Source of the DNA: Euglena gracilis
Lineage: Eukaryota
Assembly: GCA_039621445.1 (NCBI GenBank)
Contig: CP154954.1
Location: forward strand, 2,108,001-2,172,000
Direction: 5' to 3'
Length of the DNA stretch: 64,000 nucleotides
Under the pieces are notes generated by a model that worked only from the letters and a program-made list of their open reading frames with translations, was not told the origin of the DNA and searched no databases. Position 1 is the first letter of the stretch. Every line of letters begins with the position of its first letter. Below are positions 38,731 through 64,000 of this stretch, piece by piece. A program made the position numbers and the translations under genes.

Positions 38731-38802
38731 CAAATCTGGCGATCAGGGATCGTAGGATCCGCGAAGCATGGGAACACATGGGAATGGACAACACACCCAC
38801 CG

Positions 38803-41851: not shown

Positions 41852-41877
41852 CGAAAAAAAATAGACACTCAGAAAGT
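41852..41877 (-). other. Complete 26-nt euglenid spliced-leader sequence (genomic relic)
   Basis: ACTTTCTGAGTGTCTATTTTTTTTCG, identical to the Euglena gracilis SL as I recall it; followed by TGTATT rather than a GT donor. Confidence 0.88.
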
Positions 41878-44191
41878 CCATCCCAAGGGGGTGTTCCCCC
41901 CGCGTCCCCCCCGCGTCCCCCCCCCCGCGTCCCCCCCGCGTCCCGGATTTCGGCCGGGCATGTTTTTTGGGCGACCAAATGAAAATTTCATACAAATTCG
42001 GGTGACGCCAAAGAAAACGTGTGGGGGTGGTTGGGCCACAGTTCCCCCCCGCGTCCCCCCCGCGTCCCCCCCCCCGCGTCCCCCCCGCGTCCCGAACCAC
42101 CCCCCAAAAGTCCCATGGTTGCCTGGCCAGGGCTTGCGAGTCTTGGGCTTTCCAATGGAGCACCCGGCTTCAACAACGTTTAAAAAAAGAGGTGCCAGCG
42201 TTGGTGGAGTAAATGAAGGAAGCTTGACATGTCCTGAGCAATCTCGGCGACCCGCAGTGTGAGCACATTTTATTACGGTATTGCCTTGATGCCTACAAAG
42301 TGATGCACTTCCTCTGCACCATGCAAACCCCCTCCTTGGAAACAAGGCACAGGGGGGGAGGGGGGGGGTCCGAGGGGGGGGGTTGGAAGCTGTACAGGGG
42401 GGGGAGGGGGGGTCCCCAGAAAATCACAACTGTACTGCCTACCCCCGAGACAGTTGCGACATTTTTCGTCCAATTGAGGTTGGCAATGATGGGTTTTGCG
42501 AAATTCAGATGCATTTTGCAAAACATTTGTGTCTTGTAAAAAGAGTGGTAGCCAGTATTTTCACTTTAAACACCCCCCCCTTATTCCCCCCCCCTAATTG
42601 GCCAAAGCCCAGGTGGCCAATTAGGGGGGGGGGTTCTCATTTCAAGGGAAAATGCCTTTATTCGGGTGTTTTTCGGGGGTTCGCGATTATGAAGGACAGG
42701 TCCAGATGGCCAATTGGGGGGGTTAGGGGGGTGCTACCCCCGTGACCCCCCCGTGACCCGCCCGTGACCCGAGAATCGAGCTTTCAATTTTCATACAATG
42801 CATCAACCTTCATCAGCCAGCCTTTCTTTTCATTCATCATTTCAGCCTGCTTTTTGATGTAGGTGGCGTTTTTGGTCGCTTTTCATCAATTTTCTGGTTC
42901 AAACCATCGAAAATTTGTCTTGACATGGTCAAAAAAATGGAAAGAAATGCCAAGATTTGAGGTGAAAAGATTTTCGACCCAAACAATGGCGCCTTTTTTG
43001 GCGTATTAATTTGACCCAAAATATGTCCCATTGGCAAAAGGGGAGATTGCACAAGTACAAAAGAATCGCATGGCAAAAGGGGGGAGGGGAAACATGAAAT
43101 TTTTGTGGAAGAAACCCCCCTAAAAAACAGAAAAGAATTGTCCTCAACCTGGGGGGGGGGCTGCCCCCCCCCCAGGTTGCGAAGTCGACAGTTGGGTTGA
43201 GTTGGGGGGTTTCCAAAGGGGTTCTACCCATGATTTCGCTTTCTAGCTCAAATTTTTTGGAGCATTGGAATTCAAAAAAGGCGTTAACGTCTCGGCCCCT
43301 TTGGGGCCAGGGGGACAGAAAAAAAATACATTTTGGTTGTGCCATAAAAAAAGTTTCCTCGGCGCTTCGCACCTGGTAGCATTGCAACGTAATTTACAAT
43401 TGTAAGTTTCACTTGTAACTTACGCGTAACTTACGGCGTAATTCATTTTTTAATTTCCGCCGTGTAATTTATGTTCTACCTTTTTCAGAAATTTCAGACC
43501 GTTTCTCCTTTTTTTGTGTGCAAAGCACCTTTTTTTCCCATTTAAAAATTGGGTTTATGTGTTGTTGTCATCCCATGTGAGAAAAAAACAAGTCAAAGGC
43601 ACTGCAAAAAAGTGCAGTTCAAGTTTTTTTTTTACAGCCAAAGGGGAGACTGTTTTTGGACCCGAAGGCAGCAACCCGCCTGAAAAAGTGTTGGATGAAT
43701 TCCAAAATAAAAATTGGCGATGTACTTAATTGGCACGGTCTCGCCCCTCAAAGGACCTGTGTGACCTCGTGGGTTTCCAACCCACGACCATACCATCATA
43801 AGACATGCGCCGCCATTCTGTTAATGGTCGTCACTCTGTGTGCATTTGTTGTGGACTTTTATCAAAATTTCTTAAAGAATGTCATTTTGGCCATTTTTTT
43901 TTGACAAACAAGTTCTCTTGTAGTGAACCTCACCAGTGAAGTAATCTTCACCAGTGAAGTTAACTTCACCCAATTTACCTTAACCAAATTTAACTCACCC
44001 TCGCCCCCTCAAAATGTCACCCCCCAAACGTGGCCAAGTTTTTTGGCAAATTCTGGTTTATCCCCTCAAAGGGTTTACCCCTAATTTTCCTTCGACACCA
44101 AAGGCGGCAAAGGCCAAAATTTGACCTCCTCTCCAAAGTGTCCCCCCTCCCCTGGAGTGGCCATTTGGGTCCCACGATGCCTGGAGGGTGG
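41877..44191. repeat. Right arm of the 2.3-kb inverted duplication
   Basis: Reverse complement of 35865-38185; outer end falls inside a small repeat that is intact on the left side (compare 32761-32800). Confidence 0.95.
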
Positions 44192-47800: not shown

Positions 47801-48371
47801 TCGTTGGATGCGAATTTTTCCAAAGGCGCAGTACGCGCATCCCTACAAGCATCCTTGGATGCACATGCCCTACAAGCATCCACGGATGGACATGATCATG
47901 AACATGCTTACAATTGCGATTACAATCGCCCGTTTATACCACAACTTAAGATTCCCCCCCATAAGGGTGAATCTTCGGATGAGGAACCGGTTTTTGCCTC
48001 AAAAACCGTGAATCCTCCGGTTTTACAACAAGAATTTCGTGAATCGGAACTAATTCGCGGAATGAGCCATATCCCTACCCCGGGTATTGGTCATTGGTCG
48101 CGAATACGAAACGCGGAATCTACCGCGGTTCCCCGATTTGCGGGTGAACAACGGGATTCCTACCCCCCTGATATGTTACCACACCCCGAAGCGCGGAATC
48201 GCGACACTTTACAATCAGAATCGCGGAATCGCGACATTCTACAACAGGAATCGCGGAATCGCGACATTCTACAACCAGAATCGCGGAATCGCGACATACC
48301 ACCACCAAATTTGCGGAATCGCGACGTACCATACACCCATGGTACCTGTGGTACCATGAGCAACAACCTGG
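44826..48371 (+). pseudogene. Frameshifted long coiled-coil ORF, possibly gag/ORF1 of a retroelement, 3'-truncated
   Basis: Overlapping ORFs 44796/44906/45723/46481 join through about three frameshifts from ATG 44826; intronless, distinct codon style, heptad-rich (LQTANAELQ, LQTAIGDLQ), 30-bp internal repeats at 44960-45120 and 48190-48330, PPPY motif. No diagnostic domain recognised. Confidence 0.5.
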
Positions 48372-48386
48372 ACCCTAACCCTAACC
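48372..48386. repeat. Short interstitial telomeric tract (CCCTAA)n
   Basis: accctaaccctaacc joins the coiled-coil ORF to LRR-array intron sequence (accatgtctcgttttt..., compare 51895 onward). Confidence 0.78.
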
Positions 48387-49404
48387 ACCATGTCTCGTTT
48401 TTTTTTATTTGCACCGAAAAGGGTATTTCTCCCCACATTTCCAGCAAAGAACCTGCTGAGTTGCACAAAGCACTGTGAACGAAGTGACTCGTTTGTGACA
48501 CAACACCTTCCCATCAAGGCGAGGAGAGCAGGCGAGCAGCACCTCTGAGGTGAATTTTTGGTGGGTTACAAAATAATCATTTTTTTACTGCAACAAATAT
48601 TGGAGGTGGCCTCAAGACCATGCCCGTTTTCCAGGATCAGCGGGATATAGTTTTTTTCAGTTCCCAAAAACTGTACAATAACTGGCAAACACCAAAAACT
48701 GGCAGGTATGCTTTGCATCACGAATCACCGTCAGGCTGAGTTTTATGGAGGCACCGACCCCACCCTAGGTAGTGCGTGGGGAGGTGCACCCAGATCCAAA
48801 CCCCCCCTGGAGGCACATGGCAAGGGTGGGGGGGGAAAATTTCCACCTGCAATTTTTGCATTTTTGTACAATTTTTGATTTTCCTCAAATGTGCAATTTT
48901 TTTTGCAATTTTGTGCATTTAATTTCACATGCCCCAGGATTTTTTTGTTTTGGAAAACGTCAGCTTTTGATGCAATTGAGGATTTTCTAAAACCCCGCTG
49001 GTTTTCTGGAGCCGGAAGTCACCCTGCCCGGGGGGATCCAGCCTGCCAGCAACCCCCAAAATTTTGGAGAAAGGGGTCAAAAACAGCCAAAATATGTATT
49101 TTTAGGTGCTTTTTGGGTTTTACCTCCTGATTTTGATTAGAAATGGCAACGCAGCTCGATTTAGGTTTTTTTTGAGGGACTTCTTGGGTATCTGCCGGCT
49201 GCTCAACCCCACGGGCCCCCCACCTCTTTGGCTGGTGATTCAGCCTGCACTTTTTCAACCCCCACCCAGCCAGCACCTTTTTCCAGCTGGCCCGCAGTTA
49301 TTGTCTGTTTTTGCTTATTTCCACCTTAGAGCCTGTGGCTACCGTGACCCACAGTTTGTTCCCGTGTTCTTTGCCCCTTCCCTTCCTCCCCTTGCCCTGC
49401 GCAG

Positions 49405-49679
49405 ACAACGCCATCGGGCCGGAGGGCGCCAAAGCGTTGGCGGAGGCCAGGGCTGCGCTTCTGAACGGGGGAAGGTTGCCACACACCCGGGGGTAGGGGA
49501 AGTGTTGGGGCGGTGGGGGAAGGGTCAGCGTTGGTGATGAGGCTGCCGTGTGAGGGACACCAAACCACACACCCCACCCTCCCCAAGGTGTGGGGGTGTG
49601 TGGGGGTGTGGGGTGAGAAGCGGAGGGCTGGCCCCGGCTCTCCGGACTAACGCCACGCTGCAGGAGGTGAACCTCGGCA
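49405..49679 (+). CDS. LRR module 1 (type A): exons 49405-49444 and 49636-49679
   Basis: AG acceptor, 40-nt exon, intron GGCCAG...CTGGCCCC, 44-nt exon, GTATG donor. Confidence 0.88.
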
Positions 49680-52600
49680 GTATGCCCCCTCCCCTCCCCT
49701 CCCGTCCCGTTCCGTGGGGTGTTTCTCTCCACCGGGATGGGCCGGTGCTTTGAAAAGGAACCGCCGCCACGAACCCCCCGTCGCCCATGGTCTCTGCTGG
49801 CGGCTGCCCACTGAATCGCTCGGCGCAGTTGGGTTGTTCTCGCTGGGTCTCGGCTGTTGGTCCGCAGTCACGGCACCCGTCTCCCCCCACCCCACTCCCT
49901 GGGTGTGGTGCCCCCGCCCGTCTCGTCCGGGCGGTGCGTCGTCGTGTGGCGTGGAGAGGGGGTTTCCCTTGGTGGTTAATGGTGTCTTGAGTGCTTGCGG
50001 TGTGCTGGGGGATCAGGCCCAAGGATGGGCCGAGCTGCCTGACGGGACCAACCAAAAATACCCGACACATGTCTTTCTCGGAAGTTCCGCAGCTGACCAA
50101 AGTTACACCCAAATTTTGCTGCCTCATTTTTGTTTTTTTTTTGAAATTTTCAAAACATCTCTAAAATGAAGCAAATGAATAAATTTTTCAACATCAAAAG
50201 CAGCCTGCAAACTGCCCTGTCTAACCATATTTTAGTTTCAGTGTGATGGCCCTCATTAAGTTCATCAGGCATTTTTGCTGGAATTTGCTGGATTTTGCTT
50301 GATTTTTGAAATCGTTGGCATTTCGTAATTTCTCGCCTTTGAATACAGTGATTCCTTGGGCCAGGTAGGGAATTCCGGGAGCCCTCATGGAACGGAATTT
50401 TTTTTCCCGCATATCCCAAGCTCTGGCGTGTAGCTGTAGCCTGTTTGCGACACCAAACAGTGCTGCAAGCCCCCCACTCTACCATTCTCGTCCATTTTTG
50501 GGCCGACAAAAACCGTTTTGTACACTCCAGTTTGGGACATTTTTTTTTTGGGCCCCGTAATTGAGAAATACCAAATATCTCGAAAAATGAAGCAGAATCA
50601 AGCAGAATGGCCGAATATCCAAATTGAAGCCTTTACAATGCCCAATTGAACAGTTTTTTAGTGCCACCAAGCCCGAGATATGGCTGATTTATGCCCCAAA
50701 TCAGCACTGAAGGCTTTTTCGGGCCGGGCCGGGCCGCCGGGCTCGCGCCGGTTACCTTGCTGTTCATAACAAAGAAAACGTGGCAATTCCAGACCCTCCC
50801 TGTCCAACGCATTTTTCAGAAACAAACAAAAAAAGGTCGACGATTTGCGTCTTTGTGAATTTTTTATTGCAATTTTTTTGCAGTTTTGCCTAATTTCACC
50901 CAAAAAATGACGAAAATGAAATTTTCAACCAATTTTTGGTTGGCAAATTCTGTTCAACACTCTGCACTGCCCAAAGAGTCACCTGGACAACGAGAGGGGA
51001 AGAGTGGGCACCCGCAGCTTTTGAATCAAAACTGGTGTTTTTTCTCAGGGTTCAACGTATACCTGCTGCTGCCCACAGAACACATACATGCACACACTCG
51101 GGTGGGGAAATCCATTTTGTTTGCAGCATTTGGACAGTGGAATTGGAGGACATTTTTTTGCATTTCTTGCCGTGAGCGCCCAAGGTGCGGTGTTACTGGG
51201 CTGAGGGCTGAGGGCTGAGGGCACAGCGATCAGCAGAGTGCCCTCCCAGCCATGTGTGGCCCCTTTCCCCTCCCTCCGCCCCCTGCTGTCCGGCACATAG
51301 GCAACGACATTGGGATCGAGGGGACCGTAGCGTTGGCGGTGGCCAGGCCTGCGCTTCAGCGATGTCATCCCCCCCCCCCGGGGGGTGCCGGGGTGAATGG
51401 GTCACAGGAAGGCCTGGGCGGCCGGTGAGGGGGTGGGGTGGAGGCGGTGACGGCCGGCCAAGGCAGAGGAGAGGGGCCGGGTGGGAGTGGGGGCTACCGA
51501 GGGCCCGGCCCATCAGCTGGAGGGGAGGGCTGGCAGGTAGCAGACCCCCCATGGCTGGCGTGGCACTGTTGGGGCGGGTGTGGGTTGGGAAAGCGAAGGG
51601 GTGGCCCCGGCGCTGCGGACCAACTCCACGTTGCAGAAGGTGGACCTCTACAGTGTGGCCCCTCTCTGCGGTTCCTGTCACACACGTTGGTGCATTGGTG
51701 TGACGGGGAGGTGTCGTAGCAAAACCGTTTGTGTTAAAATGGTATCAGCCATATTTTCCACCACCTGCCATTGTGGGGTGGGGTGACAATGTGGCACCGT
51801 CAGATTCCAGCCAGCAGGATTGAGGGGAGGGGTTGATCCATGTCTGAGGACATGGAACAGTGCAATGCCTGTGGTGGTTTGTCGCACCAAACCCACCATG
51901 TCTCGTTTTTTGTTTATTTGCACCGAAAAGGGTATTTCTCCCCACCGAAAGGAGTTTTTGTTACCACATTTCCAGCAAAGCACCTGCTGAGTTGAACAAA
52001 GTCCACAAGACCCCCATCTCTTTGGGGGGTGATTCAGCCTGCACTTTTCTTCCCCCCAGCCAGCACCTTTTTCCAGCTGGCCCGCAGTTTTTGTCTGTTT
52101 TTTCTTATTTCCACCTTAGAGCCTGTGGCTACCGTGACCCACAGTTTGTTCCCGTGTTCTTTGTCACATCCCTTCTTCCCCTTGCCCTGCGCAGACAACG
52201 ACATTGGGCCGGAGGGCGCCAAAGCGTTGGCGGAGGCCAGGGCTGCGCTTCTGAACGGGGGAAGGTTGCCACACACCTGGGGGTAGGGGAAGTGTTGGGG
52301 CGGTGGGGGAAGGGTCAGCGTTGGGGATGAGGCTGCCGCGTCAGGGGCACCAAAGCCGCACACTCCACCCTCCCCAAGGTGTAGGGGTGTGGGGTGTGGG
52401 GGTGAGAAGCGGAGGGCTGGCCCCGGCTCTCCGGACAAACGCCACGCTGCAGGAGGTGCAACTCAGCCGTATGCCCCCTCCCCTCCCGTCCCGTTCCCTG
52501 GGGTGTTTCTCTCCACCGCGATGGGCCGGTGCTGTGAAAAGGAACCACCGCCACAAACCCCCCGTCGCCCATGGTCGCTGCTAGCTGCTGCCCGCTGAAT

Positions 52601-55600
52601 CGCTCGGTGCGGTTGGGTTGTTCTTGCTGGGTCTCGGCCATTGGTTCACAGTCACGGCACGCGTCACCCCCCACTCCACTCACCTGGGTGTGGTGCCCCC
52701 GCCCGTCTCGTCCGGGCGGTGCTTCATGCGGCGTCGAGTGGGGGGTTTCTCTTGATGGTTAATGGTGCCTTGAGTGCTTGCGGTGTGCTGGGGGATCAGG
52801 CCCAAGGATGGGCCGAGCTGCCTGACGGGACCAACCAAAAATATCCGACACATGTCTTTCTCAGAAGTTCCGCAGCTGACCAAAGTTACACCCAAATTCC
52901 GCTGCTTCATTTTTGTTTTGTTTTTTCTGAAATTTGAGAATATATCTAAAATTAGTAAAATGAGTAAGTTTTCAACATCAAAAGCAGCCTTTAAACTGCC
53001 CTGTCTAACCATATTTTGGTTTCAGTGTAAAGCCGTAATTAAATTCATCCAGCACTTTTGCTGGAATTTGATGTATTTTGCTTCATTTTTGAAATTGTTG
53101 GCATTTCGTTATTTTGCGCCTTTGAATACAGTGATTCCTCCCTCGGGCCAGGTGAGGAATAATGGGAGCCATCATGGAACGCAATTTCTTGCTGTCCCGC
53201 CCATCCCAAGCTCTGGCGTGTTTGCGACACCAAACAGTGCTGCAAGCCCCCCACTCTACCAGTCTCGTCCATCCCGCCTTTGGGCCGACAAAAACTGTTT
53301 TGTGCAGTCTAGTTTGGGACGTTTTTTTCTGGGCCCCAAAATTGCAAAATGCCAAATATCTCGAAAATGAAGCAGAATCAAACAGAATGTCCGAATATCC
53401 ACATTGAAACCTTCAAAATGCCCAACTAAACTGTTTTTTATTGCCGCCAAGCCTGAGATATGGCTGATTTACACTCCCAATCAGCACTGCAGGCTTGTCC
53501 GGGCCGGGCCGGGTACGTTGCTGTCATCACAAATAGCTCAGCACTAAAGAAAACGTGGCAATTTCAGACCCCCCCCTTTCAACGCACCCCTCAGGGCCGA
53601 CCAAAAAAAGGTCGACAATTTGCGCCTTCTGGATTTTTTAAGTAGTTTTGTCGAATTTTCACCCAAACAATGCACAAAATGATATATGTTACCGATATTT
53701 GGTTGGCATATTCTTTTCAACATTTTGCACTGCCCAAAGAGTAACCCAGACCACCCCCTCCCAGCCATGCGTGGCCCCTTTCCCCTCCCTCTGCCCCCTG
53801 CTGTCCGGCACGCAGACACCGGCCTTGGGGACGAGGGGACCGTGACGTTGGCGGTGGCCAGGCCTGCACTTCAGCGATGTCATCCCCCATCCACAGGGGT
53901 GCCGGGGTGGATGGGTCACAGGAAGGTCGGGGCGGCCGGTGAGGGTGGGTGGAGGCCGTGACGGCCGGCCGCTGCCAAGGCAGAGGGGAGGAGCCGGGTG
54001 CAGGCTTTTGCTTAAGGGATTGCAGTACCCCCCCGGGGGGGGGGGGCTGGACTACAGCTAGTCCAAATTGCCTAGTGGTATTTCTAGCAGACGGGGTTCT
54101 GTTAGGGCTAGCTAGTGGAAAAAATTTTCCTGTGACCGACGCGGACCCCCAAAAATGGCTAAAAATGCCCGTTGGGAATTTTTGTAACGAAATCAGCCAA
54201 AAACCTACTCAAAACCTCATTTTTCCAGTTCGGGGACCCCCCGGAAACCCCCCACCCCCGGGGGTGGAAGTGGGTCTAGTTAGTCCACTTTTTTCCAGTG
54301 TCTAGCCGATTGGCTAGTCAGTACCCCCCCTTCCGGGGGTCCTTAAGCAAAAGCCTGGCCGGCAGGGAGTGGGGGCTGCCGAGGGCCCGGCCCATCCGCT
54401 GGAGGGGAGGGCTGGCAGGAAGCGGACCACACATAGCTGGTGTTGCACTGTGGGGGTGGGGGTTGGGGAAGCGAAGGGGTGGCCCCGGCGCTGCGGACCA
54501 ACGCCGCGTTGCAGAAGGTGAACCTCAGATGTATGGCCCCTCTCTGCGGTTCCTGTCACACACGTTGGTGTATTGGTGTGACGGGGAGGTGCCGTAGCAA
54601 AACCGTTTGTGTTAAAATGGTATCGATCATATTTTCCACCACCTGCCATTGTGGGGTGGGGGGACAATGTGGTACCGTCGGATTCCAGCCAGCAGCATTG
54701 GGGGGGGGGGGCTGATCCATGTCTTAGGACATGGAACAGTGCAATGCCTGTGGTGGTTTGTCGCACCAAACTCACAATGTTCTGTTTATTGTTAATCTGC
54801 ACTGAAAGGGGTATTTGTCCCCACATTTCTAGCAAAGCACCTGCTGAATTGCACAAAGCACTGTGAGCGAAGTGACTCGTGTGTGACACAACACCTTCCC
54901 ATCAAAGCGAGGAGATGAACCCTACAGCACCTCGGAGGTGTATTTTGGTTACGAAAGGATCATTTTTTTTACTGCAACAAACATTGCAGATGAATACTTT
55001 GGGTTTTCTTGAGCCGGAGGTGACCCTACCCGAGGGGGGGTCCAGACTGCCAGTAACTTTTTTCCAGTCATCACCTCCCAGCTGGGCTGGGATCCACACC
55101 CTGTTGTGGGTCCGTTGGGATACAGTTTAGGCCAAGCCAGCGAAGCCGGGCAGTTACCGATAATGTTTTCAGCGCAAAGCCACAAAATTTTGGAGAAAAG
55201 GGTCAAAAATGGCCAAAAATGTATTTTTTAGGTGCTTTTTGAGTTTTCACCTCCTGATTTTGCTTAAAAATGGCAACGCGGCTCGATTTAGGTTTTTTGG
55301 GGGGGACTTCTTGGGTACCTGTCCCCCCAGCCAGCAACTTTTTCCAGCTGGCCCGCAGTTTTTGTCTGTTTTTGCTTATTTCCACCTTAGAGCCTGTGGC
55401 TACCGTGACCCACAGTTCGTTCCCGTGTTCTTTGTCACTTCCCTTCTTCCCCTTGCCCTGCGCAGGGAACTCCATCGGGTCGGAGGGCGCCAAAGCGTTG
55501 GCGGAGGCCAGGGCTGCGCTTCTGAACGGGGGAAGGTTGCCACCCCCCGGGGGGTGGGGGAAGGTTTGGGGCGGTGGGGGAAGGGTCAGCGTTGGGGATG

Positions 55601-57074
55601 GGACTGCCGCGTCAGGGGCACCAAACCACACACCCCACCCTCCCCAAGGTGCGGGCGTGTGGGGTGTGGGGGTGAGAAGCGGAGGGCTGGCCCCGGCTCT
55701 CCGGACTAACGCCACGCTGCGGGAGGTGAACCTCCTTGGTATGCCCCCTCCCCTCCCCTCCCGTACCGTTCCGTGGGGTGTTTCTCTCCACCGCGATGGG
55801 CCGGTGCTGTGAAAAGGAACCACCGCCACAAACCCCCCGTCGCCCATGGTCGCTGCTAGCTGATGCCCGCTGAATCGCTCGGTGCGGTTGGGTTGTTCTC
55901 GCTGGGTCTCGGCCATTGGTCCCCAGTCACGGCACGCGTCACCCCCCACCCCACTCCCTGAGTGTGGTGCCCCCGCCCGTCTCGTCCGGGCGGTGCGTCG
56001 TGTGGCGTGGAGTGGGGGGTTTCTCTTGATGGTTAATTGTGTCCTGAGTGTTTGCGGCACACGGCACATACGGCACATGTGTTTCTCGGAAGTTCCGCAG
56101 CTGACCAAAGTTACACCCAAATTCTGCTGCCTCATTTTTGATTTGTTTTTTGAAATTTCAGAATAACTCTAAAATGAAGCAAAATGAATAAATTTGTCAA
56201 CATCAAAAGCCGCCTTTAACCTGCCCTGTCTAACCATATTTTCGTTTCAGTGTAAAGCTGTAAATAAGTTCATCAAGCACTTTTGTTGTATTTTGCTTCA
56301 TTTTTGAAATCGGTGGCATTTCGCGCTTTTGCAGCTTAAATACAGTGATTCCTCGGGCCAGGTAAGGAATTACGGGAGCCCTCATGGAACGCAATTTTTA
56401 TTTTCCACCCATCCCAAGCTCTGGCGTGTTTGCGACACCAAACAGTGCTGCAAGCCCCCCACTCTACCATTCTCGTCCATCCCGTCTTTGGGCCGACAGA
56501 AACTGTTTTGTGCAGTCCAGTTTGGGACGTTTTTTCTGGGCCCCAAAATTGCGAAATACCAAATATCTCGAAAATGAAGCAGAATCAAACAGAATGTCCA
56601 GATATCTAAATTGAAACCTTAAGAATGCCCAATTAAAACTTTTTTATTGCCGCCAAGCCTGAGAAATGGCTGATTTACACTCCCAATCAGCATTGCAGGC
56701 TTGTCTGGGCTGTGATGGGCCGCTGGGCCGGGCCGGGTATGTTGCTGTTCATCACAAAGAGCTCAGCACCAAAGAAAACGTGGCAATTCCAGACCCCCCC
56801 TCCAACGCACCACTCAGGGCCAACCCAAAAAAGGTCGACAATTTGCGCCTTTGCGATTTTTAAGCAATTTTTCCGAATTTTCACCCAAACAATGCCGAAA
56901 ATTAATATTTTTCACCGATTTTTGGTTGGCAAATTCTTTTCAACGCTCTGCACTGCCCAAAGAGTCACCCGGACCACGAGAGGGGAAGGGTGACTCTTAG
57001 GCACCCCCTGCATTCCAATAAAAAAAACGGTGTTTTTTCTTAGGGTTTCAAGGCATGCCTGCTGCTGCCCAAAG

Positions 57075-57141
<67 letters not shown>

Positions 57142-60100
57142 GCGCGCGCGCGCGGATGCGCAAAGAGCACGGATGCCCGAACACGCAAAGAGGCAGTTCG
57201 CGGTTGTTAATATCGCAGATGAAACCCCTTTTTGTTTTCTTGAGTCGGAGGTGACCCTACACGGGGGGGGGGGGTCCAGACTGCGCTGTAATTACACCAG
57301 AGTTACTCACCCGGCCAGGGGGAGCAACAAAAGAGCACTGGTGTAAGGGGTCCTTGGCCACTTACCACACAGCAAACTGGGCCAGAAACGAAGATAGTGC
57401 CGGCCATAAACAGACAAGAAGCCTTAGTGCAACAAAGGGGGGTTCCAGACTGCCAGCAACTTTTTCCAGCATGCACTTCCCAGCTGGGCTGGGATCCACA
57501 CCCTGTGGTGGGTCCGCTGAAATAAAATTTGGGCCAAACCAGCGAAGCCAGGCAGTAACGATAACGTTTCGGCGCAAAGCCTCAAAATTTTTGGAGACAT
57601 GGGTCAAAAGTAGCCTAAAAAGTGGTTTTCCAGGTGCTTTTTGAGTTTTTACCTCCTGATTTTGAGGGGAAAAATGGCAACGCATCTCGATTTTTGCTTT
57701 TGGGGGGTACATCTTGGGTACCTGCCGGATGCTCAACCTCACAGGACCCGGGGGGTGATTCAGCCTGCACTTTTCTTCCCCCCAGCCAGCAACTTTTTCC
57801 AGGTGGCCCACAGTATTTTTATTTCTTTTTGGCTTATTTCCACCTTAGAGCCTGTGGCTACCGTGACCCACAGTTCGTTCCCGTGTTCTTTGTCACTTCC
57901 CTTCTTCCTCTTGCCCTGCGCAGGCAACGCCATCGGGCCGGAGGGCGCCAAAGCGTTGGCGGAGGCCAGGGCTGCGCTTCTGAATGGGGGAAGGTTGCCA
58001 CACACCCGGGGGTAGGGGAAGTGTTGGGGCGGTGGGGGAATGGTCAGCGTTGGGGATGGGGCTGCCGCGTCAGGGGCACCAAACCACACACCCAACCCTC
58101 CCCAAGGTGTGTGGGGGTGTGGGGTGTGGGGGTGAGAAGCGGAGGGCTGGCCCCGGCTCTCCGGACTAACGCCACGCTGCAGGAGGTGGACCTCGGCTGT
58201 ATGCCCCCTCCCCTCCCGTCCCGTTCCGTGGGGTGTTTCTCTCCACCGCGATGGGCCAGTGCTGTGAAAAGGAACCGCCGCCACAAACCCCCCGTCGGCC
58301 CAAGGGCTGTGTGAATCGCTCGGCGTGGTTGGGTTGTTGTCGCTGGGTCTCGGCCATTGGTCCCCAGTCACGGCACGCGTCACCCCCCACCCCACTCACC
58401 TGGGTGTGGTGCCCCCGCCCGTCTCGTCCGGGCGGTGCTTCATGCGGCGTGGAGTGGGGGGTTTCTCTTGATGGTTAATTGTGTCCTGAGTGCTTGCGGT
58501 GTACTGGGGGATCAGGCCCAAGGATTAGCCGAGCTATGTAGCTGACCAAAGTTACACCCAAATTTTGCTGCCTCATTTTTGATATGTTTTTTTTGAAATT
58601 TGAAAATATATCTGAAATTCAGCAAAATGAGTAGATTTTCAACATCAAAAGCAGCCTTTAAACTGCCCTGTCTAACCATATTTTGGTTTCAGTGTAAAGC
58701 CGTAATTAAATTCATCAAGCATTTTTGCTGGAATTTGATGTTTTGCTTCATTTTTGAAATTGTTGGCATTTCGCTATTTTGCGGCTTAAATACAGTGATT
58801 ACTCGGGCCAGGTGAGGAATTATGGGAGCCCTCATGGGACGCAGTTTTTATTCTCCCCCGCTTCCTGCGGTCCCGCCCATCCCAAGCTCTGGCGTGTTTG
58901 CGACACCAAACAGTGCTGCAAGCTCCCCACTCTACCAGTCTCGTCCATCCAGTCTTTGGGCCGACAAAAACTGTTTTGTGCAGTCTAGTTTGGGACGTTT
59001 TTTCCTTGGTCCCATCATTACAAAATGCCGAATAACTCGGAAATTAAGCAGAATCAAGCAGAATGTCCGGATATCCAAATTGGAACCTTAAAGATGCCCA
59101 ACTAAACTGTTTTTTATTGCCCCTTTCCCCTCCCTCTGCCACCTGCTGTCCGGCACGTAGGCACCGGCATTGGGGACGAGGGGACCGTAGCGTTGGCGGT
59201 GGCCAGGCCTGCGCTTCAGCGATGTCATCCCCCTCCCCTGGGGGTGTCGGGGTGGATGGGGCACAGGAAGGCCTGGGCGGCCGGTGAGGGGCGGGTGGAG
59301 GCGGTGCCGGCCGGCCGCTGCCAAGGCAGAGGGGAGGGGCCGGGTGGGAGTGGGGGCTGCCGAGGGCCCGGCCCATCCGCTGGAGAGAAGGGCTATCAGT
59401 AAGCAGACCCCCCATGGCTGGTGTGGCACTGTGGGGTGGGGGTGGGTTGGGGAAGCGAAGGGGTGGCCCCGGCGCTGCGGACCAACTCCGCGTTGCAGAA
59501 GGTGGACCTCCACTGTATGTCCCCTCTCACGTTGGTGCATTGACGTGACGGGGAGGTGCCGTTGCAAAACAGTTTGTGTTGAAATGGTATCGATCCTATT
59601 TTCCACCACCTGCCATTGTGGGGTGGGGATCCAATGTGGTACCGTCGGATTCCAGCCAGCAGGATTGAGGGGGGGGGGAGGCTGATCCATGTTTGAGGAC
59701 ATGGAACATTGCAATGCCTGTGGTAGTTTATCGCACCAAACCCTCCCTATCCCGTTTTTTTTTGTTTCATTGTGCTGAAAGGGGTATTTGTCCCCACATT
59801 TTCAGCAAAGCACCTGCTGAATTGCACAAAGCACTGTGAGCGAAGTGACTCGTGTGTGACACAACACCCTCCCATCAAAGCGAGGAGATGAAGCCTGCAG
59901 AACCTCGGAGGTGTATTTTGGTTACGAAAGGATCATTTTTTTTACTGCAACAAACATTGCAGATGAATACTTTGGGTTTTCTTGAGCCGGAGGTGACCCT
60001 ACCCGAGGGGGGGTCCAGACTGCCAGTAACTTTTTTCCAGTCATCACCTCCCAGCTGGGCTGGGATCCACACCCTGTTGTGGGTCCGTTGGGATACAGTT

Positions 60101-60711
60101 TAGGCCAAGCCAGCGAAGCCGGGCAGTTACCGATAATGTTTTCAGCGCAAAGCCACAAAATTTTGGAGAAAAGGGTCAAAAATGGCCAAAAATGTATTTT
60201 TTAGGTGCTTTTTGAGTTTTCACCTCCTGATTTTGCTTAAAAATGGCAACGCGGCTCGATTTAGGTTTTTTTGGGGGGACTTCTTGGGTACCTGTCCCCC
60301 CAGCCAGCAACTTTTTCCAGCTGGCCCGCAGTTTTTGTCTGTTTTTGCTTATTTCCACCTTAGAGCCTGTGGCTACCGTGACCCACAGTTCGTTCCCGTG
60401 TTCTTTGTCCCTTCCCTTCTTCCCCTTGCCCTGCGCAGGGAACTCCATCGGGTCGGAGGGCGCCAAAGCGTTGGCGCAGGCCAGGGCTACGCTTCTGAAC
60501 GGGGGAAGGTTGCCACACACCCGGGGGTAGGGGAAGTGTTGGGGTGGTGGGGGAAGGGTCAGCGTTGGGGATGGGACTGCCGCGTCAGGGGCACCAAACC
60601 ACACACACCACCCTCCCCAAGGTGTGGGGGTGTGGGGTGTGGGGGTGAGAGGCGGAGGGCTGGCCCCGGCTCTCCGGACTAACGCCACGCTGCGGGAGGT
60701 GAACCTCAGCC
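49405..60711 (+). CDS. Ribonuclease-inhibitor/NLRC3-like LRR protein, eight 28-aa modules in 16 micro-exons; start and stop not in view
   Basis: Spliced frame has no stop: xNAIGPEGAKALAEALRTNATLQEVNLG SNDIGIEGTVALAVALRTNSTLQKVDLY NNDIGPEGAKALAEALRTNATLQEVQLS HTGLGDEGTVTLAVALRTNAALQKVNLR WNSIGSEGAKALAEALRTNATLREVNLL GNAIGPEGAKALAEALRTNATLQEVDLG CTGIGDEGTVALAVALRTNSALQKVDLH WNSIGSEGAKALAQALRTNATLREVNLS. Confidence 0.9.
51301..51652 (+). CDS. LRR module 2 (type B): exons 51301-51340 and 51609-51652
   Basis: Same 40+44 layout; internal intron GGCCAG...GTGGCCCC. Confidence 0.85.
52195..52468 (+). CDS. LRR module 3 (type A): exons 52195-52234 and 52425-52468
   Basis: Same 40+44 layout and junctions. 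Confidence 0.88.
53816..54530 (+). CDS. LRR module 4 (type B): exons 53816-53855 and 54487-54530
   Basis: Same layout; internal intron enlarged by a MITE. Confidence 0.85.
54001..54357. mobile_element. hAT-like MITE, family CAGGCTTTTGCTTAAGG, inside a non-conventional intron
   Basis: Perfect 17-bp TIRs; flanks GCCGGGTG / GCCGGCAG; empty site gccgggtgggagtggg in modules 2 and 7. Confidence 0.9.
55466..55738 (+). CDS. LRR module 5 (type A): exons 55466-55505 and 55695-55738
   Basis: Same 40+44 layout and junctions. Confidence 0.88.
57077..57139. repeat. (CA)n microsatellite
   Basis: Direct reading of the sequence. Confidence 0.95.
57924..58198 (+). CDS. LRR module 6 (type A): exons 57924-57963 and 58155-58198
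   Basis: Same 40+44 layout and junctions. Confidence 0.88.
59161..59514 (+). CDS. LRR module 7 (type B): exons 59161-59200 and 59471-59514
   Basis: Same 40+44 layout and junctions. Confidence 0.85.
60439..60711 (+). CDS. LRR module 8 (type A): exons 60439-60478 and 60668-60711
   Basis: Same 40+44 layout and junctions. Confidence 0.88.
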
Positions 60712-61745
60712 GTATGCCCCCTCCCGTCACGTCCCATTGTGTGGGGTGTTTCTCTCCACCACGATGGGACGGTGCTGTGAAACGGAACCCCCGCCAGGAA
60801 CCCCCCCGTCGGCCCAAGGGGTTTGTGAATCGCTCGGTACAGTTGTGTTATTCTCGCTGGGTCTCGGCCATTGGTTCCCAGTCACGGCACGCGTCTCCCC
60901 CCACCCCCCTCCCTGGATGTTTGTACCCCCGCCCGTCTCGTCCGGGCAGAGCTTCATGCGGCGTGGAGTGGGGGGTTTATCTTGATGGTTAATTGTGTCC
61001 TGAGTGCTTGCGGTGTGCTGGGGGATCAGGCCCAAGGATAGGCCGAGCTGCCCAAAGGGACCAACAAAAAAAATCAAGCCCGTGTAAACGCCGTGTGCAC
61101 ATGTCTTTCTCGGAAGTTTCGCAGCTGACCAAAGTTACACCCAAATTTTGCTGCCTCATTTTTGGTTTTTTTTTGAAATTTGAGAATATCTCTAAAATGA
61201 AGCAAAATGAATAAAATTTTCAAGATCAAAAGCAGCTCCTAAACTGCCCTGTCTAATTGTGTTTTGGTTTCAGTGTAAAGGCCGTATTTAAGTTCATCAA
61301 GCACTTTTGCTGGAATTTGATGGATTTTGCTTCATTTTTAAAATTGTTGGCATTTCGCGATTTTGTGGCTTAAATACAGTGATTCCTCGGGCCAAGTAGG
61401 GAATTACGGGAGCCCGCATGGAACTGAATTTCCCCCCCCCCACTTCCTGCGGTCCCGCCCATCCCAGGCTCTGGCGTGTTTGCGACACCAAACAGTGCTG
61501 CAAGCCCCCCAATCTACCATTCTCGTCCATCCCGTCTTTGGACCAAAAAAAATGTTTTGAACAGTCCAGTTTGGGACGTTTTTCCTGGGCCCCAAAATTT
61601 GAAAATGCCAAATATCTCGAAAATGAAGCAGAATCAAGCAGAATGTCCGGATATCCATATTGAAACCTTAAGAATGCCCAATTGAACAGTTTTTGAGTGC
61701 CGCCAAGCCTGAGATATGGCTGATTTACAATTCCAATCAGCACCG

Positions 61746-64000
61746 CAAATTATTTGATTGAGTTTTTCACTTTTTGCCTGGTGTCGAACCCGCCTTGTCT
61801 TGGGTCAAAAAATAAATTTAACGTTTCTCAAAAATGGTGGGGAATCAAAGTAAATGTCCTGAGATTCAAATTGAAGGCTTTAAATTGCTTCGTTAAGCAG
61901 TATTTTGATTTCCCCGCAACTCCCCGCCTACCCTGAGTTACGGCTACTTTTTGGCCAATTTTGGGCCATTTTGTACAGTTTTGGCTTGTTTTGATTTTGC
62001 CGTTTTTTGGCCATTTTCAGGTCAAAAAGTCGAAAAATTAGGCCAAAAATTGTCTTTTTGGGCAGAAGTGCATCAAGAATCCAAAAAAAATCGTTGCAAA
62101 ATATTATAACAAAAAAGCGCCGAAGGAAAAAAAAATAACCTCTGTGTGGTTCCTGGGTGCCTAGCCAGGCTCAGGAGGGGGGTCTACCCGTTTAGGGTAT
62201 GTTAAACCCTGGGCTTAAAATGATACAACTTAATTTGTCATTTTGTAATTCCTTACAACATCATTTATCATATTTATTTTTTTCATGAAAAGAAACCAAA
62301 ATGCATGCAAAAAAGCAGGAAAATTAGGAAGAAGCTAAATAAAAAAGCCTCGTATCCTTTTTGGCACACATTTGATTTACATTGTACGAGTTATCAATTA
62401 CATCGAAGACCATGTTTATAGTTTCTAGGTCTAAAGGAAAACAAACCATTTTCTTCATGTTGGTTTTGGCATCACGAAAACCCCCTCAAATGCAGAAAAA
62501 AAATGGGAACCGGCCGGGGTGAGGATATTGTGGAAGGAAACCGGAATTCTTCTTTGGACACAAAGCCAGAGAATGTATCAGTCCAGCACCATATGTAAGG
62601 ATAAAACACTTAATTTTTTTTCGGTTGTTTTCTCTCGTTTTCTCTCATTATGATTTCCATCACCAATTTGTTCTGAAATTTCAGCAAAGCTTGAAAGACC
62701 AAAGAAAATCAGACCAAAAACGAAATACATCAATTTGGGTCTCTCTGTATTTGGTAATCAAAACAGGAATTCTGGTTAGTTGCAATTTTTACTAATATTT
62801 GGCATTTTCAATGGGGGGATGTGGGGGTGGGTCCACAGCATTCCCGCATTTTTTGATTATCACGACTCCCACGGTTTACTGAAAAAGAAACCAGGAAACA
62901 GTTTATGGGAGGGATGGGGGGGGGTCGCTGAGCTCTTATCCTTTTATGGGTGAGAGCGAACCTTTCCACTGCGGAAAAGGGGGGTCGTCCCCCCCCCCCC
63001 CGGGTCGGGGCCACCAGGAGAACCGGCAAATTATCACCATGACCCGGGTCCCGAATTTTTTTTCCAGTTGCGAGCGACTGGATCTCAGTTTCCGAATCAC
63101 CTCCGTTTGACCTGCAACTCCCTGCCAGGCCTGAGTTATTCACTGGGTAGGACTGGCCCGCCCCCCCTTCCGACTCTGCCATTTCGCTGGGGTCCAAAAT
63201 ATCTCAGAAAACGTACAATTTTTCCAGAAATGTCGGTCTGACGAAATGCACCCCCGGAGGCCCTCTATCACCGCCCCATAATCACCGTTTTGGCTGCCGA
63301 GACGCCTGGCCCGTGTTCCGGCGCGCTTTTGCAACTCAGAACGGGCATTTTGCAGTGTTTTTTTTGGGCTGTTTCTGGGTCAAAAAAAATCGATTTTTTT
63401 TCAAATATCTCGACAATGAAGTAAAATAAAAGAATGTCCGGAGAGCAAAAATGAAGCCTTTGGAACGCTGTACCCAACCATGGTTTTCTTTTCCCTCGAC
63501 TCTTCGTGTAGCCCGAGTTACGGCCATTTTTTGGCCCATTTTGGCCCATTTTTGGGCCATTTTGGGCTGTTTTTTGGGGGGGTCAAAAAAACCACGTTGA
63601 GACCTAAATTGAGGCCCTTACGAGCCCTTACGATGCTCTATCTAATTGTGTTTTGATTTCCCCGCAACTCCCCGCCTGGCCCAAAATATGGCCAATTTAT
63701 GGCCCAAAACAGCGCGGCATGGCTGTTTTCGGAATCACGGAGAAACTATGAAGGAAAATGAGGTGGGAACAGGGTTGTAGTGTTTTGGCTGATCTGACAC
63801 TGGGGCTTTGCTGTAGGCAGTTCGCCGCTGTTGGTGGGGGGTTCTTTCCCGGTATCTGCGTTCTTGTTGTTCCATTTGCTATTGACCCAAATTATTTGAT
63901 TGAGTTTTTCACTTTTTGCCTGGTGTCGAACCCGCCTTGTCTTGGGTCAAAAAATAAATTTAAAGTTTCTCAAAATTGGTGGGGAATCAAAGTAAATGTC
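61746..64000. repeat. Dispersed repeat family copy 3, head-to-tail permuted, interrupting the LRR intron
   Basis: 61746-62750 matches 1040-2055, then 62746-64000 matches 29444-30449 and 1-1152; junction shares TGTAT. Confidence 0.9.

What the first reader, a model, noticed from the sequence alone, without database searches (positions are those of the whole stretch)
49405..60711. Modular LRR array with hypervariable splice-junction residues: candidate diversifying receptor system
Seen: eight 84-nt modules, all bounded by phase-1 GT-AG introns. Scaffold codons and long intron tracts are nearly constant between copies, yet the last 10 nt of the five type A modules differ non-synonymously around an invariant Leu codon (AAC CTC GGC A / CAA CTC AGC C / AAC CTC CTT G / GAC CTC GGC T / AAC CTC AGC C). 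The residue spanning the junction is S, N, H, W, G, C, W. Established: the x positions of LxxLxLxxN form the ligand-binding concave face. Every pairing of a donor base (A, C, G, T) with an acceptor dinucleotide (AC, GC, GG) is stop-free, so skipping or shuffling modules keeps the frame and creates new junction residues. Inference: diversifying selection and possible combinatorial splicing, comparable to one-repeat-per-exon LRR families in ciliates and brown algae, not known to me from euglenids.
Basis: partly seen in the sequence, partly recalled or inferred. Interest (0 to 1): 0.86.

Follow-up and report, generated by a model that had tools for sequence, protein, structure and literature searches.

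The report
Modular leucine-rich-repeat gene array in Euglena
This is a stretch of a Euglena-type gene built from eight copies of a 28-residue leucine-rich repeat, each cut by two different kinds of intron, and its predicted binding-face residues change faster than the neighbouring introns, though there is no evidence that splicing shuffles the modules.

Summary
Eight modules (five type A, three type B) lie on the + strand at 49405-60711. Each gives exactly 84 coding bases, with 8 of 8 AG acceptors, 8 of 8 GT donors, phase 1 throughout and an open 224-codon frame.

RNA reads show this intron removed at the homologous site. It fits the published Euglena nonconventional-intron signature in 5 of 5 type A copies but 0 of 3 type B copies.

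The product is a ribonuclease-inhibitor-type (Pfam LRR_6) repeat protein from a large expressed family. A Euglena gracilis transcript protein shares 25 residues with it, 11 of them intron-encoded.

Among type A copies, the predicted binding-face codons differ at pN 0.33, against 0.06-0.10 in introns and 0.02 in scaffold codons (Fisher P = 4e-4). This supports diversifying selection on small numbers.

Combinatorial splicing has no support: the long-skip and backward joints come from cross-mapped paralogue reads. Transcription of this copy is not shown, since diagnostic B1 and B2 letters are nearly absent from RNA. No terminal domains lie in the window.

Verdict: a new variant of a known kind, of moderate interest.

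The parts
48385..49404 (+). Partial conventional intron upstream of A1. It is homologous to the 3' parts of the B-to-A introns. Homology to the array stops at 48385, and no B module or other LRR exon lies upstream in the window.
   Evidence: blastn of one array unit against the window; motif and regex scans
49405..49679 (+). Module A1: half-exon 49405-49444, nonconventional intron 49445-49635 (191 nt; borders can slide up to 3 nt to the right), half-exon 49636-49679
   Evidence: a joint with left edge 49444 is seen in RNA
49680..51300 (+). Conventional GT-AG intron, phase 1 (1621 nt)
   Evidence: RNA depth about 0
51301..51652 (+). Module B1: half-exon 51301-51340, nonconventional intron 51341-51608 (268 nt), half-exon 51609-51652
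   Evidence: joint 51340->51609 in 125 reads of X21, 119 of X22 and 27 of X24
52195..52468 (+). Module A2: half-exon 52195-52234, nonconventional intron 52235-52424 (190 nt), half-exon 52425-52468. Preceded by a 542-nt GT-AG intron (51653-52194).
   Evidence: a joint with left edge 52234 is seen in RNA
53816..54530 (+). Module B2: half-exon 53816-53855, nonconventional intron 53856-54486 (631 nt), half-exon 54487-54530. Preceded by a 1347-nt GT-AG intron (52469-53815).
   Evidence: joint 53855->54487 in a few reads
54001..54357 (.). 357-nt insertion with perfect 17-nt terminal inverted repeats (MITE-like) inside the B2 nonconventional intron. A 72%-identical copy lies at 12157-12597 on the other strand.
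55466..55738 (+). Module A3: half-exon 55466-55505, nonconventional intron 55506-55694 (189 nt, open in frame), half-exon 55695-55738. Preceded by a 935-nt GT-AG intron (54531-55465).
   Evidence: joint 55505->55695 in 46 reads of X21, 32 of X22 and 15 of X24
55739..57923 (+). Conventional intron A3-to-A4 (2185 nt). It has no B module and contains (AC)32 at 57076-57139.
57924..58198 (+). Module A4: half-exon 57924-57963, nonconventional intron 57964-58154 (191 nt), half-exon 58155-58198
   Evidence: outside the stretch laid with reads
59161..59514 (+). Module B3: half-exon 59161-59200, nonconventional intron 59201-59470 (270 nt), half-exon 59471-59514. Preceded by a 962-nt GT-AG intron (58199-59160).
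   Evidence: outside the stretch laid with reads
60439..60711 (+). Module A5: half-exon 60439-60478, nonconventional intron 60479-60667 (189 nt), half-exon 60668-60711. Preceded by a 924-nt GT-AG intron (59515-60438).
   Evidence: outside the stretch laid with reads
60712..61745 (+). Start of the next conventional intron (GT donor present), homologous to the other A-to-B introns. From 61746 to the window end a dispersed repeat interrupts it, so the next exon, if any, lies outside the window.

Best explanation
The region is part of a nuclear gene, or a recently silenced copy, of a large expressed Euglena family encoding ribonuclease-inhibitor-type (Pfam LRR_6) leucine-rich-repeat proteins.

Shown:
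- The 28-residue repeat is encoded one per 84-nt module.
- Modules are separated by conventional GT-AG introns that all sit after the first base of the codon for repeat position 8.
- Each module is bisected at one fixed site, in the helix segment, by a euglenid nonconventional intron.
- In RNA of the family both intron kinds are removed at the homologous sites, giving an 84-nt periodic message.
- Scaffold codons change more slowly than introns, and the x codons (positions 2, 3, 5, 7, 8, 10) change 3-5 times faster.

Inferred:
- The array grew by tandem duplication and unequal exchange of A-B units of about 3 kb that carried both intron types along. This is why the introns are alike.
- The concave beta-sheet face is a binding surface under diversifying selection. 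New position-8 residues also arise whenever modules are juxtaposed afresh, because that codon is split between modules.
- Diversity is therefore generated in the germline: duplication, exchange and point substitution across many paralogues. RNA shuffling is not needed to explain it.
- The ligand and cellular role are unknown. The best guess is an intracellular protein-protein recognition scaffold.
For: Structure:
- 8 modules, 84 nt each, 8 of 8 AG and 8 of 8 GT, open 224-codon frame.
- 7 of 7 full repeats meet 8-10 of the 10 conserved positions of the RI-class consensus printed in PMC6642158.

Family:
- A half-repeat hits LRR_6 at E = 0.031.
- Protein P0004, named by its source as a Euglena gracilis transcript, is 25 of 25 identical to A1/A4 including 11 intron-encoded residues.
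- P0004 scores 43.2 bits on LRR_6 against a cut-off of 23.4.
- P0004 matches the spliced product at 131.9 bits in a one-target search.
- P0004 hits ribonuclease inhibitor, RanGAP1, NLRX1, DRC5 and LRRC34 structures.

RNA:
- Introns have about 0 depth and the half-exons are covered.
- Within-module joints: 51340->51609 (125 reads in X21) and 55505->55695 (46 reads in X21), both with ends GG..CC.
- The letters replaced at module boundaries keep their length.
- The stranded run X24 is consistent with + strand RNA.

Nonconventional intron:
- CCAGG at +3 to +7 in 8 of 8 copies.
- CTG-N5 followed by a purine in 5 of 5 type A copies.
- A terminal helix in the minimum-energy fold in 5 of 5 type A copies.
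- These match passages of PMC11170887 and the abstract of PMC12501133.

Selection (type A copies):
- x-codon pN 0.325, against scaffold pN 0.021 and pS 0.043.
- Introns 0.064-0.099.
- Variable columns 9 of 15 against 118 of 659, P = 4e-4.
- 10 of 10 pairs are ordered x-sites > introns > scaffold.
Against: Transcription of this copy is not shown.
- The window's own letter at 51315 (B1) appears in 6 of 177, 0 of 162 and 2 of 43 reads.
- The window's own letter at 53845 (B2) appears in 0 of 86, 0 of 64 and 0 of 24 reads.
- Only 58 of 1244 reads in X21 are 99% or more alike.
- The RNA may come from another strain.

Gene completeness is uncertain.
- No upstream exon or start was found. Homology to the array stops at 48385, next to an orphan ORF and a retroelement.
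- The 3' continuation lies outside the window.

Type B nonconventional introns have GTG where the published signature needs CTG (0 of 3).

The selection test is weak in several ways.
- It rests on 5 related copies.
- Similarity is mosaic. A3 and A5 differ at 1 of 150 sites upstream but 38 of 280 downstream. Gene conversion has therefore acted and the intron baseline may be homogenised.
- Two of about 105 intron 12-nt windows reach the diversity of the exon 3' end.
- Type B copies give no significant contrast.

The same pattern of constant scaffold and variable x positions is ordinary in RI-type repeat proteins of other organisms (P0011 and P0012).
Confidence: 0.7

Rival explanations
1. This locus is a truncated, silent pseudogene copy of the family. 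Its intact frame and its pattern of variation were inherited from functional ancestors or imported from expressed paralogues by gene conversion.
For: - B1 and B2 diagnostic letters are nearly absent from three RNA runs.
- There is no upstream exon. Array homology ends abruptly at 48385, beside transposon-rich sequence.
- A MITE-like element sits in the B2 intron.
- The B module is missing between A3 and A4.
- Type B introns lack the CTG motif.
Against: - There is no stop or frameshift in 224 codons, and all 16 conventional splice dinucleotides are intact.
- Scaffold pN (0.021) is well below intron divergence, so the copies evolved under purifying selection after they duplicated.
- Reads carrying A-type letters of the window do exist, for example T at 55707 in 49 of 344.
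- The RNA strain may differ from the assembled one.
Confidence: 0.3
2. There is no positive selection. The x positions are simply unconstrained, while concerted evolution (gene conversion) keeps the introns and scaffold alike, so the contrast overstates the x-site rate.
For: - Similarity between copies is mosaic (A3-A5), so conversion occurs.
- The sample is small.
- Variable x positions are generic to LRR proteins.
Against: - Conversion tracts would homogenise the x codons together with the flanks only 3-10 nt away unless selection opposed it.
- x-site columns carry multiple hits. All four bases occur at the last exon base in 5 copies, and there are at least 13 changes in 15 columns.
- 10 of 10 pairs exceed the intron distance.
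Confidence: 0.2
3. One reading: module skipping or shuffling during splicing creates a combinatorial repertoire from one locus.
For: All modules are 84 nt and all introns are phase 1, so any skip keeps the frame. The same precondition is used by human NLRP3 (passages of PMC6642158).
Against: - No locus-specific isoform evidence exists.
- The apparent skips (49444->55695) and backward joints (55734->49406, 51649->49405) carry non-window letters at positions 7 and 8 and come with majority non-window letters elsewhere (55707 T>G in 295 of 344). They are therefore paralogue reads laid on the nearest module.
- Backward joints cannot arise by ordinary cis-splicing.
Confidence: 0.06
4. It is not a gene at all but a dispersed or satellite-like repeat that happens to be open in one frame.
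For: The region is repeat-rich and the units are tandem.
Against: - RNA covers the half-exons only, with both intron kinds removed.
- There is an LRR_6 relative.
- Scaffold codons are under purifying selection.
Confidence: 0.02

Closest known systems
Ectocarpus (brown alga) LRR-ROCO genes: one 72-nt exon per 24-residue LRR, exon shuffling, positive selection on the concave face (PMC3341825, passages read; PMC11378527, listing only)
   Same: - One repeat per coding module of fixed length.
- Frame-neutral introns.
- Tandem expansion.
- Fastest change at concave-face positions.
   Different: - The repeat here is the 28-residue RI class, not the 24-residue class.
- Each module is additionally split by a nonconventional intron.
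- No ROC-COR or other signalling domain was found in the window.
- Shuffling between loci was not tested.
[quoted passage not shown]
   Same: - Exact exon-length periodicity.
- A single intron phase.
- A codon shared between neighbouring modules.
- Clonal expansion that keeps the introns alike.
- Transposons among the introns.
   Different: - Modules here are 84 nt and phase 1.
- The module equals one LRR, whereas Tetrahymena repeat and exon registers differ.
- Two intron classes occur per module.
- Family size is not measured here.
Vertebrate NLR and ribonuclease-inhibitor LRR exons, for example the NLRP3 171-bp exons, with the border at a fixed place in the beta strand and exon 5 skipped in man (PMC6642158, passages read)
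   Same: - Same LRR class (RI type).
- Alternating A and B repeat types.
- The intron sits at the same structural place (the beta-strand end).
- Frame-neutral modules.
   Different: - One repeat per module here, not two.
- Both types are 28 residues, not 28 and 29.
- No NACHT domain was seen.
- Alternative splicing is not shown.
Euglenid nonconventional introns (PMC12501133, abstract and passages; PMC11170887, passages; PMC6221363, abstract)
   Same: - Borders are not GT-AG and can slide (3-nt direct repeat GGC).
- CCAGG at +3 to +7.
- CTG, then 5 nt, then a purine in type A.
- The ends base-pair.
- The intron is removed in RNA.
- A transcript (P0004) retains one, in line with late removal.
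   Different: - Here the intron has been copied 8 times at one homologous site by module duplication.
- Type B copies carry GTG in place of CTG.
Other RI-type LRR proteins with the N-x-I-G-D-E-G-A-K-A-L-A type consensus (P0011 and P0012 from the representative library; GALA protein 9j7j; DRC5, LRRC34, RanGAP1)
   Same: - The same 28-residue (24 in GALA) consensus.
- The same pattern of constant scaffold and variable x positions.
   Different: - These are matches to the repeat motif only.
- No orthology or shared end domains were shown.

Membership tests
RI-type leucine-rich repeat (Pfam LRR_6, PF13516) | Repeat period of 28-29 residues | tested here: met
   8 modules of exactly 84 nt, which is 28 codons
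RI-type leucine-rich repeat (Pfam LRR_6, PF13516) | Consensus LxxLxLxx(N/C)xLxxxgoxxLxxoL, as printed in PMC6642158 | tested here: met
   Of 7 full repeats, 4 meet 10 of 10 conserved positions, 1 meets 9 and 2 meet 8. The misses are T for N at position 9 in B2 and B3, and T at position 16 in type B.
RI-type leucine-rich repeat (Pfam LRR_6, PF13516) | Profile score above Pfam's gathering cut-off | tested here: inconclusive
   - Only unspliced window pieces could be submitted. A half-repeat scores 14.8 bits (E = 0.031) against a cut-off of 23.4.
- Indirect support: paralogue P0004 scores 43.2 bits.
- P0004 matches the spliced product at 131.9 bits in a local one-target phmmer run.
RI-type leucine-rich repeat (Pfam LRR_6, PF13516) | Curved solenoid fold with a parallel beta sheet on the concave side | not testable with these tools
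   The spliced product is not a letter-for-letter window translation, so it could not be sent to structure prediction.
Euglenid nonconventional intron | Borders are not GT-AG or GC-AG, and the intron is removed from RNA | tested here: met
   Joints 51340->51609 and 55505->55695 have ends GG..CC and 3 nt of sliding. None of the 4 possible registers is GT-AG. Most of these reads come from paralogues.
Euglenid nonconventional intron | 5' N3-C-D-G; 3' C-H'-G, then 5-6 nt, then a purine as first exon base (abstract of PMC12501133) | tested here: met
   Type A: 5 of 5 have GGC-CAG ... CTG-GCCCC|G. Type B: 0 of 3, because the 3' motif is GTG; the 5' motif and the purine are present.
Euglenid nonconventional intron | The intron ends pair and bring the junctions together | tested here: met
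   The minimum-energy fold pairs +1 to +6 with -3 to -8 in 5 of 5 type A copies. It pairs +1 to +5 with -3 to -7 in 1 of 3 type B copies, although the complementary 5-mers are present in 3 of 3. No shuffle control was completed (timed out).
Modular LRR-exon receptor families (Ectocarpus ROCO, Tetrahymena 90-bp, NLR) | Equal module length divisible by 3, with one intron phase | tested here: met
   8 of 8 modules are 84 nt. All 7 internal conventional introns, plus the outer acceptor and donor, are phase 1.
Modular LRR-exon receptor families (Ectocarpus ROCO, Tetrahymena 90-bp, NLR) | Faster-than-neutral change at concave-face positions | tested here: met
   Type A copies only and on small numbers: pN 0.325 against introns 0.064-0.099, and 9 of 15 against 118 of 659 variable columns, P = 4e-4. 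Type B copies: pN 0.274 against introns of 0.12 or more, which is not decisive.
Modular LRR-exon receptor families (Ectocarpus ROCO, Tetrahymena 90-bp, NLR) | Module number or order differs between paralogues or isoforms (shuffling) | tested here: inconclusive
   The order in the window is A B A B A A B A, with one B missing. RNA shows other module neighbourhoods (table 5c), but the loci they come from are unknown.
Modular LRR-exon receptor families (Ectocarpus ROCO, Tetrahymena 90-bp, NLR) | LRR array joined to a signalling domain (ROC-COR, NB-ARC/NACHT, kinase) | tested here: not met
   - No such domain occurs in the 7 longest ORFs tested from the window.
- P0004 has only a roughly 40-residue N-terminal cap before its repeats.
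- The ends of this gene lie outside what could be read.

The most novel reading that the evidence does not exclude
Euglena keeps a large, expressed repertoire of RI-type LRR proteins whose concave binding face is diversified in the germline. The proposed mechanisms are tandem module duplication, unequal exchange that re-pairs the split position-8 codon, and positive selection at positions 5, 7, 8 and 10. That would make it a recognition repertoire of the kind proposed for brown algae and ciliates, here in a free-living euglenid. It would be built on 40- and 44-nt micro-exons that need both the spliceosome and the nonconventional splicing system in every repeat. Module skipping in RNA might add further variety.
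Probability: 0.2. Interest if true: 0.75.

Novelty: new variant of a known kind. Interest (0 to 1): 0.5.

Why it matters
Three points make it worth recording.
- It adds euglenids to the few lineages (brown algae, ciliates, vertebrate NLRs) in which LRR arrays are encoded one module per frame-neutral exon unit and change fastest on the binding face. This points to convergent ways of building variable recognition proteins.
- It is a clear case of a nonconventional intron multiplied by segmental duplication at a fixed site inside a repeat. It gives eight natural copies, five with CTG and three with GTG at a motif position reported as essential. That is a ready-made test set for the noncanonical splicing code.
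- Every repeat needs two splicing systems to act on 40- and 44-nt exons. This bears on how exon definition works in Euglena.

Three library searches found no paper describing such arrays in Euglena. The library does not hold subscription-only papers, and supplements could not be seen.

Tried and rejected
- No whole genome is held for the window, so paralogous arrays could not be counted.
- Earlier findings of this scan: nothing by place, words or sequence.
- The look-up of sequencing runs listed no RNA holder. RNA raw-read runs of the same species label were laid instead.
- Read laying covered only 48400-57050. 114 joints and 384 'letters between' rows were not shown.
- A profile of the eight 14-residue half-repeats (alignment A1) was too short for the search for homologous proteins.
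- A3's intron is 189 nt and open in frame, so I used the contiguous 90-residue read-through window:55468-55737 as the query.
  - Longer proteins: 1 hit of 1476 candidates. P0003 is itself a read-through ORF of a paralogous genomic unit, with Y at position 5 and F at position 7.
  - Near length: 1 hit of 18 candidates, P0004.
  - Representative library: 11 hits. Seven matched only the G-rich intron-encoded part; the other four were P0003, P0004 and the two LRR proteins P0011 and P0012.
- PDB and Pfam searches with that read-through gave only junk or the same half-repeat hit.
- A metagenome scan with a 23-nt pattern gave 7 loci. All are GC-rich contigs that match the pattern only.
- The upstream 695-residue ORF P0001 has only weak coiled-coil-type Pfam hits, no homologues and only chance-level Atlas scores of 0.81 or less. 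I could not decide whether it belongs to the gene.
- Rfam found nothing in the window.
- The shuffle z-scores for intron folds timed out and were dropped.
- The 'stop-free pairing' argument was rejected as uninformative.

Full report
**What is in the sequence**

A conserved 18-nt core occurs eight times on the + strand between 49434 and 60485, with 0-1 mismatch. One further match, at 25306, has 3 mismatches. Chance expectation is 0.46 per window.

Alignment of the eight neighbourhoods shows two kinds of unit. Five are type A and three are type B, in the order A B A B A A B A.

Each unit has four parts:
- a 40-nt piece preceded by a C-rich pyrimidine tract and AG;
- an intervening sequence;
- a 44-nt piece;
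- a GT donor (GTATG or GTGTG).

Joined, every unit gives exactly 84 nt. The eight units in order give an open frame of 224 codons. The finding's end coordinates are exactly the first base of A1 and the last base of A5.

It is 189-191 nt in type A and 268-270 nt in B1 and B3. In B2 it is 631 nt, because a 357-nt element with perfect 17-nt inverted ends has been inserted.

**RNA evidence**

No genome is held for the window. Runs with the same coded species label were found. Three raw-read RNA runs (X21, X22, X24) and one contig set (X15) were laid on 48400-57050.

Depth is about zero over the long introns. For example, it is 0 in all three raw-read runs over 50134-50711. The half-exons are covered at tens of reads.

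Joints remove the internal sequence at homologous places:

| Joint | X21 | X22 | X24 |
|---|---|---|---|
| 51340->51609 | 125 | 119 | 27 |
| 55505->55695 | 46 | 32 | 15 |
| 53855->54487 | 3 | 2 | 1 |

The skipped ends are GG..CC, with 3 nt that fit either side. None of the four possible registers is GT-AG. After removal the frame runs on and the repeat is 28 residues. The stranded run X24 has its first mates almost all on the - strand, which is consistent with + strand RNA.

These reads mostly do not come from this locus.
- Only 58 of 1244 (X21), 57 of 1208 (X22) and 35 of 389 (X24) are 99% or more alike.
- 55707 reads G instead of the window's T in 295 of 344 first-mate-plus reads of X21.
- The most frequent joints link different modules (49444->55695) or go backwards (55734->49406, 51649->49405).
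- Where modules meet, the reads carry other letters of the same length (table 5c). In frame these give other residues at repeat positions 7 and 8.

So the family is large and expressed, it has the same exon plan, and it varies at the same two positions. The apparent skips and back-joints are cross-mapping, not shuffling.

For this copy, the diagnostic letters are nearly absent from RNA:

| Position | Module | X21 | X22 | X24 |
|---|---|---|---|---|
| 51315 | B1 | 6 of 177 | 0 of 162 | 2 of 43 |
| 53845 | B2 | 0 of 86 | 0 of 64 | 0 of 24 |
| 54503 | B2 | 3 of 94 | 7 of 97 | 0 of 31 |

Transcription of this copy is therefore unproven.

**The two intron kinds**

The long introns are ordinary for Euglena. 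They have GT(A/G)TG donors and C-rich pyrimidine tracts. Passages of PMC11170887 give GTGTG as the consensus and describe a cytidine-rich tract.

The internal introns fit the euglenid nonconventional class.
- All eight begin GGCCAGG, which puts CCAGG at +3 to +7. This is the E. gracilis consensus in PMC11170887.
- The five type A copies end CTG-GCCCC before a G. This fits the genetically defined signature N3-CDG ... CH'G-N5-6 followed by a purine (abstract of PMC12501133).
- Their minimum-energy folds pair +1 to +6 with -3 to -8 in 5 of 5 copies.
- The three type B copies have GTG instead of CTG, so 0 of 3 fit the signature. They keep a 5-bp terminal complement.
- Passages of PMC12501133 report that mutations in CTG abolished splicing of the tested intron, and that the signature covers 61.2% of nonconventional introns. 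Whether type B introns of this locus splice is therefore open.

**What it encodes**

Re-registered, 7 of 7 full repeats meet 8-10 of the 10 conserved positions of the RI-class consensus printed in PMC6642158. The spliced product could not be sent to the database tools, so direct Pfam evidence is only a half-repeat match to LRR_6 (E = 0.031, below the cut-off).

A3's intron is 189 nt and open in frame. This allowed an unbroken 90-residue window translation to be used as a query. That search found P0004, which its source names as a Euglena gracilis transcript.
- Its last 25 residues equal A1/A4, including 11 residues read from the retained nonconventional intron.
- P0004 scores 43.2 bits on LRR_6 against a cut-off of 23.4.
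- It matches ribonuclease inhibitor, RanGAP1, NLRX1, NLRPs, DRC5, LRRC34 and a GALA protein in the PDB.
- It matches the window's spliced product at 131.9 bits in a local one-target search.

P0004 shows what one family member looks like at its start: about 40 residues of cap and then repeats. It is also a transcript with a retained nonconventional intron. This agrees with late removal of such introns (abstract of PMC6221363).

**Is the variation more than chance?**

Figures for type A copies:

| Partition | Measure | Value |
|---|---|---|
| Nonconventional intron | mean pairwise difference | 0.064 |
| 150 nt upstream | mean pairwise difference | 0.072 |
| 300 nt downstream | mean pairwise difference | 0.099 |
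| Exons overall | mean pairwise difference | 0.098 |
| x codons (2, 3, 5, 7, 10) | pN | 0.325 |
| Scaffold codons | pN | 0.021 |
| Scaffold codons | pS | 0.043 |

Further tests:
- Exon change is concentrated. Of the 15 columns in the positions known beforehand to be exposed (2, 3, 5, 7, 8), 9 vary. In the rest of the exon 6 of 69 vary, and in introns 118 of 659 vary (Fisher P = 4e-5 and 4e-4).
- All 10 pairs are ordered x-sites (0.17-0.61) > introns (0.057-0.112) > scaffold (0-0.061).
- A sliding window puts the exon 3' end (0.30) above all but 2 of about 105 intron windows.
- P0003, a read-through ORF of another genomic copy, has yet other residues at positions 5 and 7.

This amounts to purifying selection on the scaffold and faster-than-intron change on the predicted binding face.

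Caveats:
- There are only five related copies.
- Similarity is mosaic: A3 and A5 differ at 1 of 150 sites upstream but 38 of 280 downstream.
- Type B copies give no clear contrast.
- The same scaffold-against-x pattern is ordinary in RI-type proteins elsewhere (P0011 and P0012).

**Extent of the gene**

No other module exists in the window. Homology to the array ends at 48385.

Upstream lie two features:
- an orphan 695-residue + strand ORF that looks like a coiled coil;
- an element of about 8.3 kb with 2-kb inverted ends.

Downstream, the intron after A5 is interrupted at 61746 by a dispersed repeat that runs to the window end. N- and C-terminal domains therefore remain unknown, and a truncated copy is a real possibility.

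**Comparison and verdict**

The plan is the one described for three other groups:
- Ectocarpus ROCO genes: 72-nt exons and positive selection on the concave face (PMC3341825);
- Tetrahymena: 90-bp exons, phase 2 and a junction amino acid (PMC6564038);
- vertebrate NLRs: RI-type repeats, 171-bp exons, the border at a fixed point in the strand, and exon skipping in NLRP3 (PMC6642158).

What is new here is the lineage and the second, nonconventional intron copied with every repeat. Three searches of the paper library found no description of such arrays in Euglena. The main text of the E. gracilis genome paper does not mention LRRs, and its supplements could not be seen.

I file this as a new variant of a known kind. 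The architecture is solid. Selection is moderately supported. Combinatorial splicing is unsupported. Activity of this particular copy is open.

Noticed in passing
window 54001-54357; copy at 12157-12597 (- strand): A MITE-like element with perfect 17-nt inverted ends sits inside the B2 nonconventional intron. Its ends begin CAGG and finish CCTG, the same letters as the nonconventional-intron end motifs. This is of interest for the idea that such introns derive from transposons. Reads and contigs cover it, so copies of it are transcribed somewhere.
   Followed up: partly
window 35865-44191: An element of about 8.3 kb has 2-kb terminal inverted repeats: 35865-37893 against 42170-44191, 99.3% identical and in opposite orientation. 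Inside it are - strand ORFs. One is 752 residues long and contains a GDIQPNPGP stretch that resembles a 2A 'skipping' peptide (the resemblance is recalled, not tested). Another gives a weak RVT_3 hit. It looks like a recent retroelement.
   Followed up: partly
window 46391-48478 (+): An open frame of 695 residues just upstream of the array. It has coiled-coil-like heptads and a 30-nt tandem repeat at 48177-48331. It gives only weak Pfam coiled-coil-type hits, no homologues and no Atlas lead. Its last 30 or so residues run into sequence homologous to the array's introns. Whether it is an exon of the LRR gene is unknown.
   Followed up: partly
window 61746-64000, 1-2055 and 29444-30449: The same dispersed repeat (96-98% identical) occurs at both ends of the window and once in the middle. 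One copy interrupts the intron after module A5.
   Followed up: no
window 55258-55809 (+): The nonconventional intron of A3 is 189 nt and has no in-frame stop. Retaining it would therefore insert 63 residues rather than truncate the protein. The other seven copies have a stop or a frame change.
   Followed up: no
window 51341-51608, 53856-54486 and 59201-59470: All three type B nonconventional introns have GTG where the published splicing signature requires CTG. Even so, B-type halves are joined at this site in RNA of the family.
   Followed up: partly
window 55739-57923: The A3-to-A4 intron lacks the expected B module. It holds an (AC)32 microsatellite at 57076-57139 and an extra repeat block at 57209-57724, which is also found upstream of A1, A3 and A5.
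   Followed up: no
window 44952-45457: A cluster of minisatellites with periods of 30, 48, 45 and 76 nt, with C-rich and stem-forming units, lies between the retroelement and the orphan ORF.
   Followed up: no
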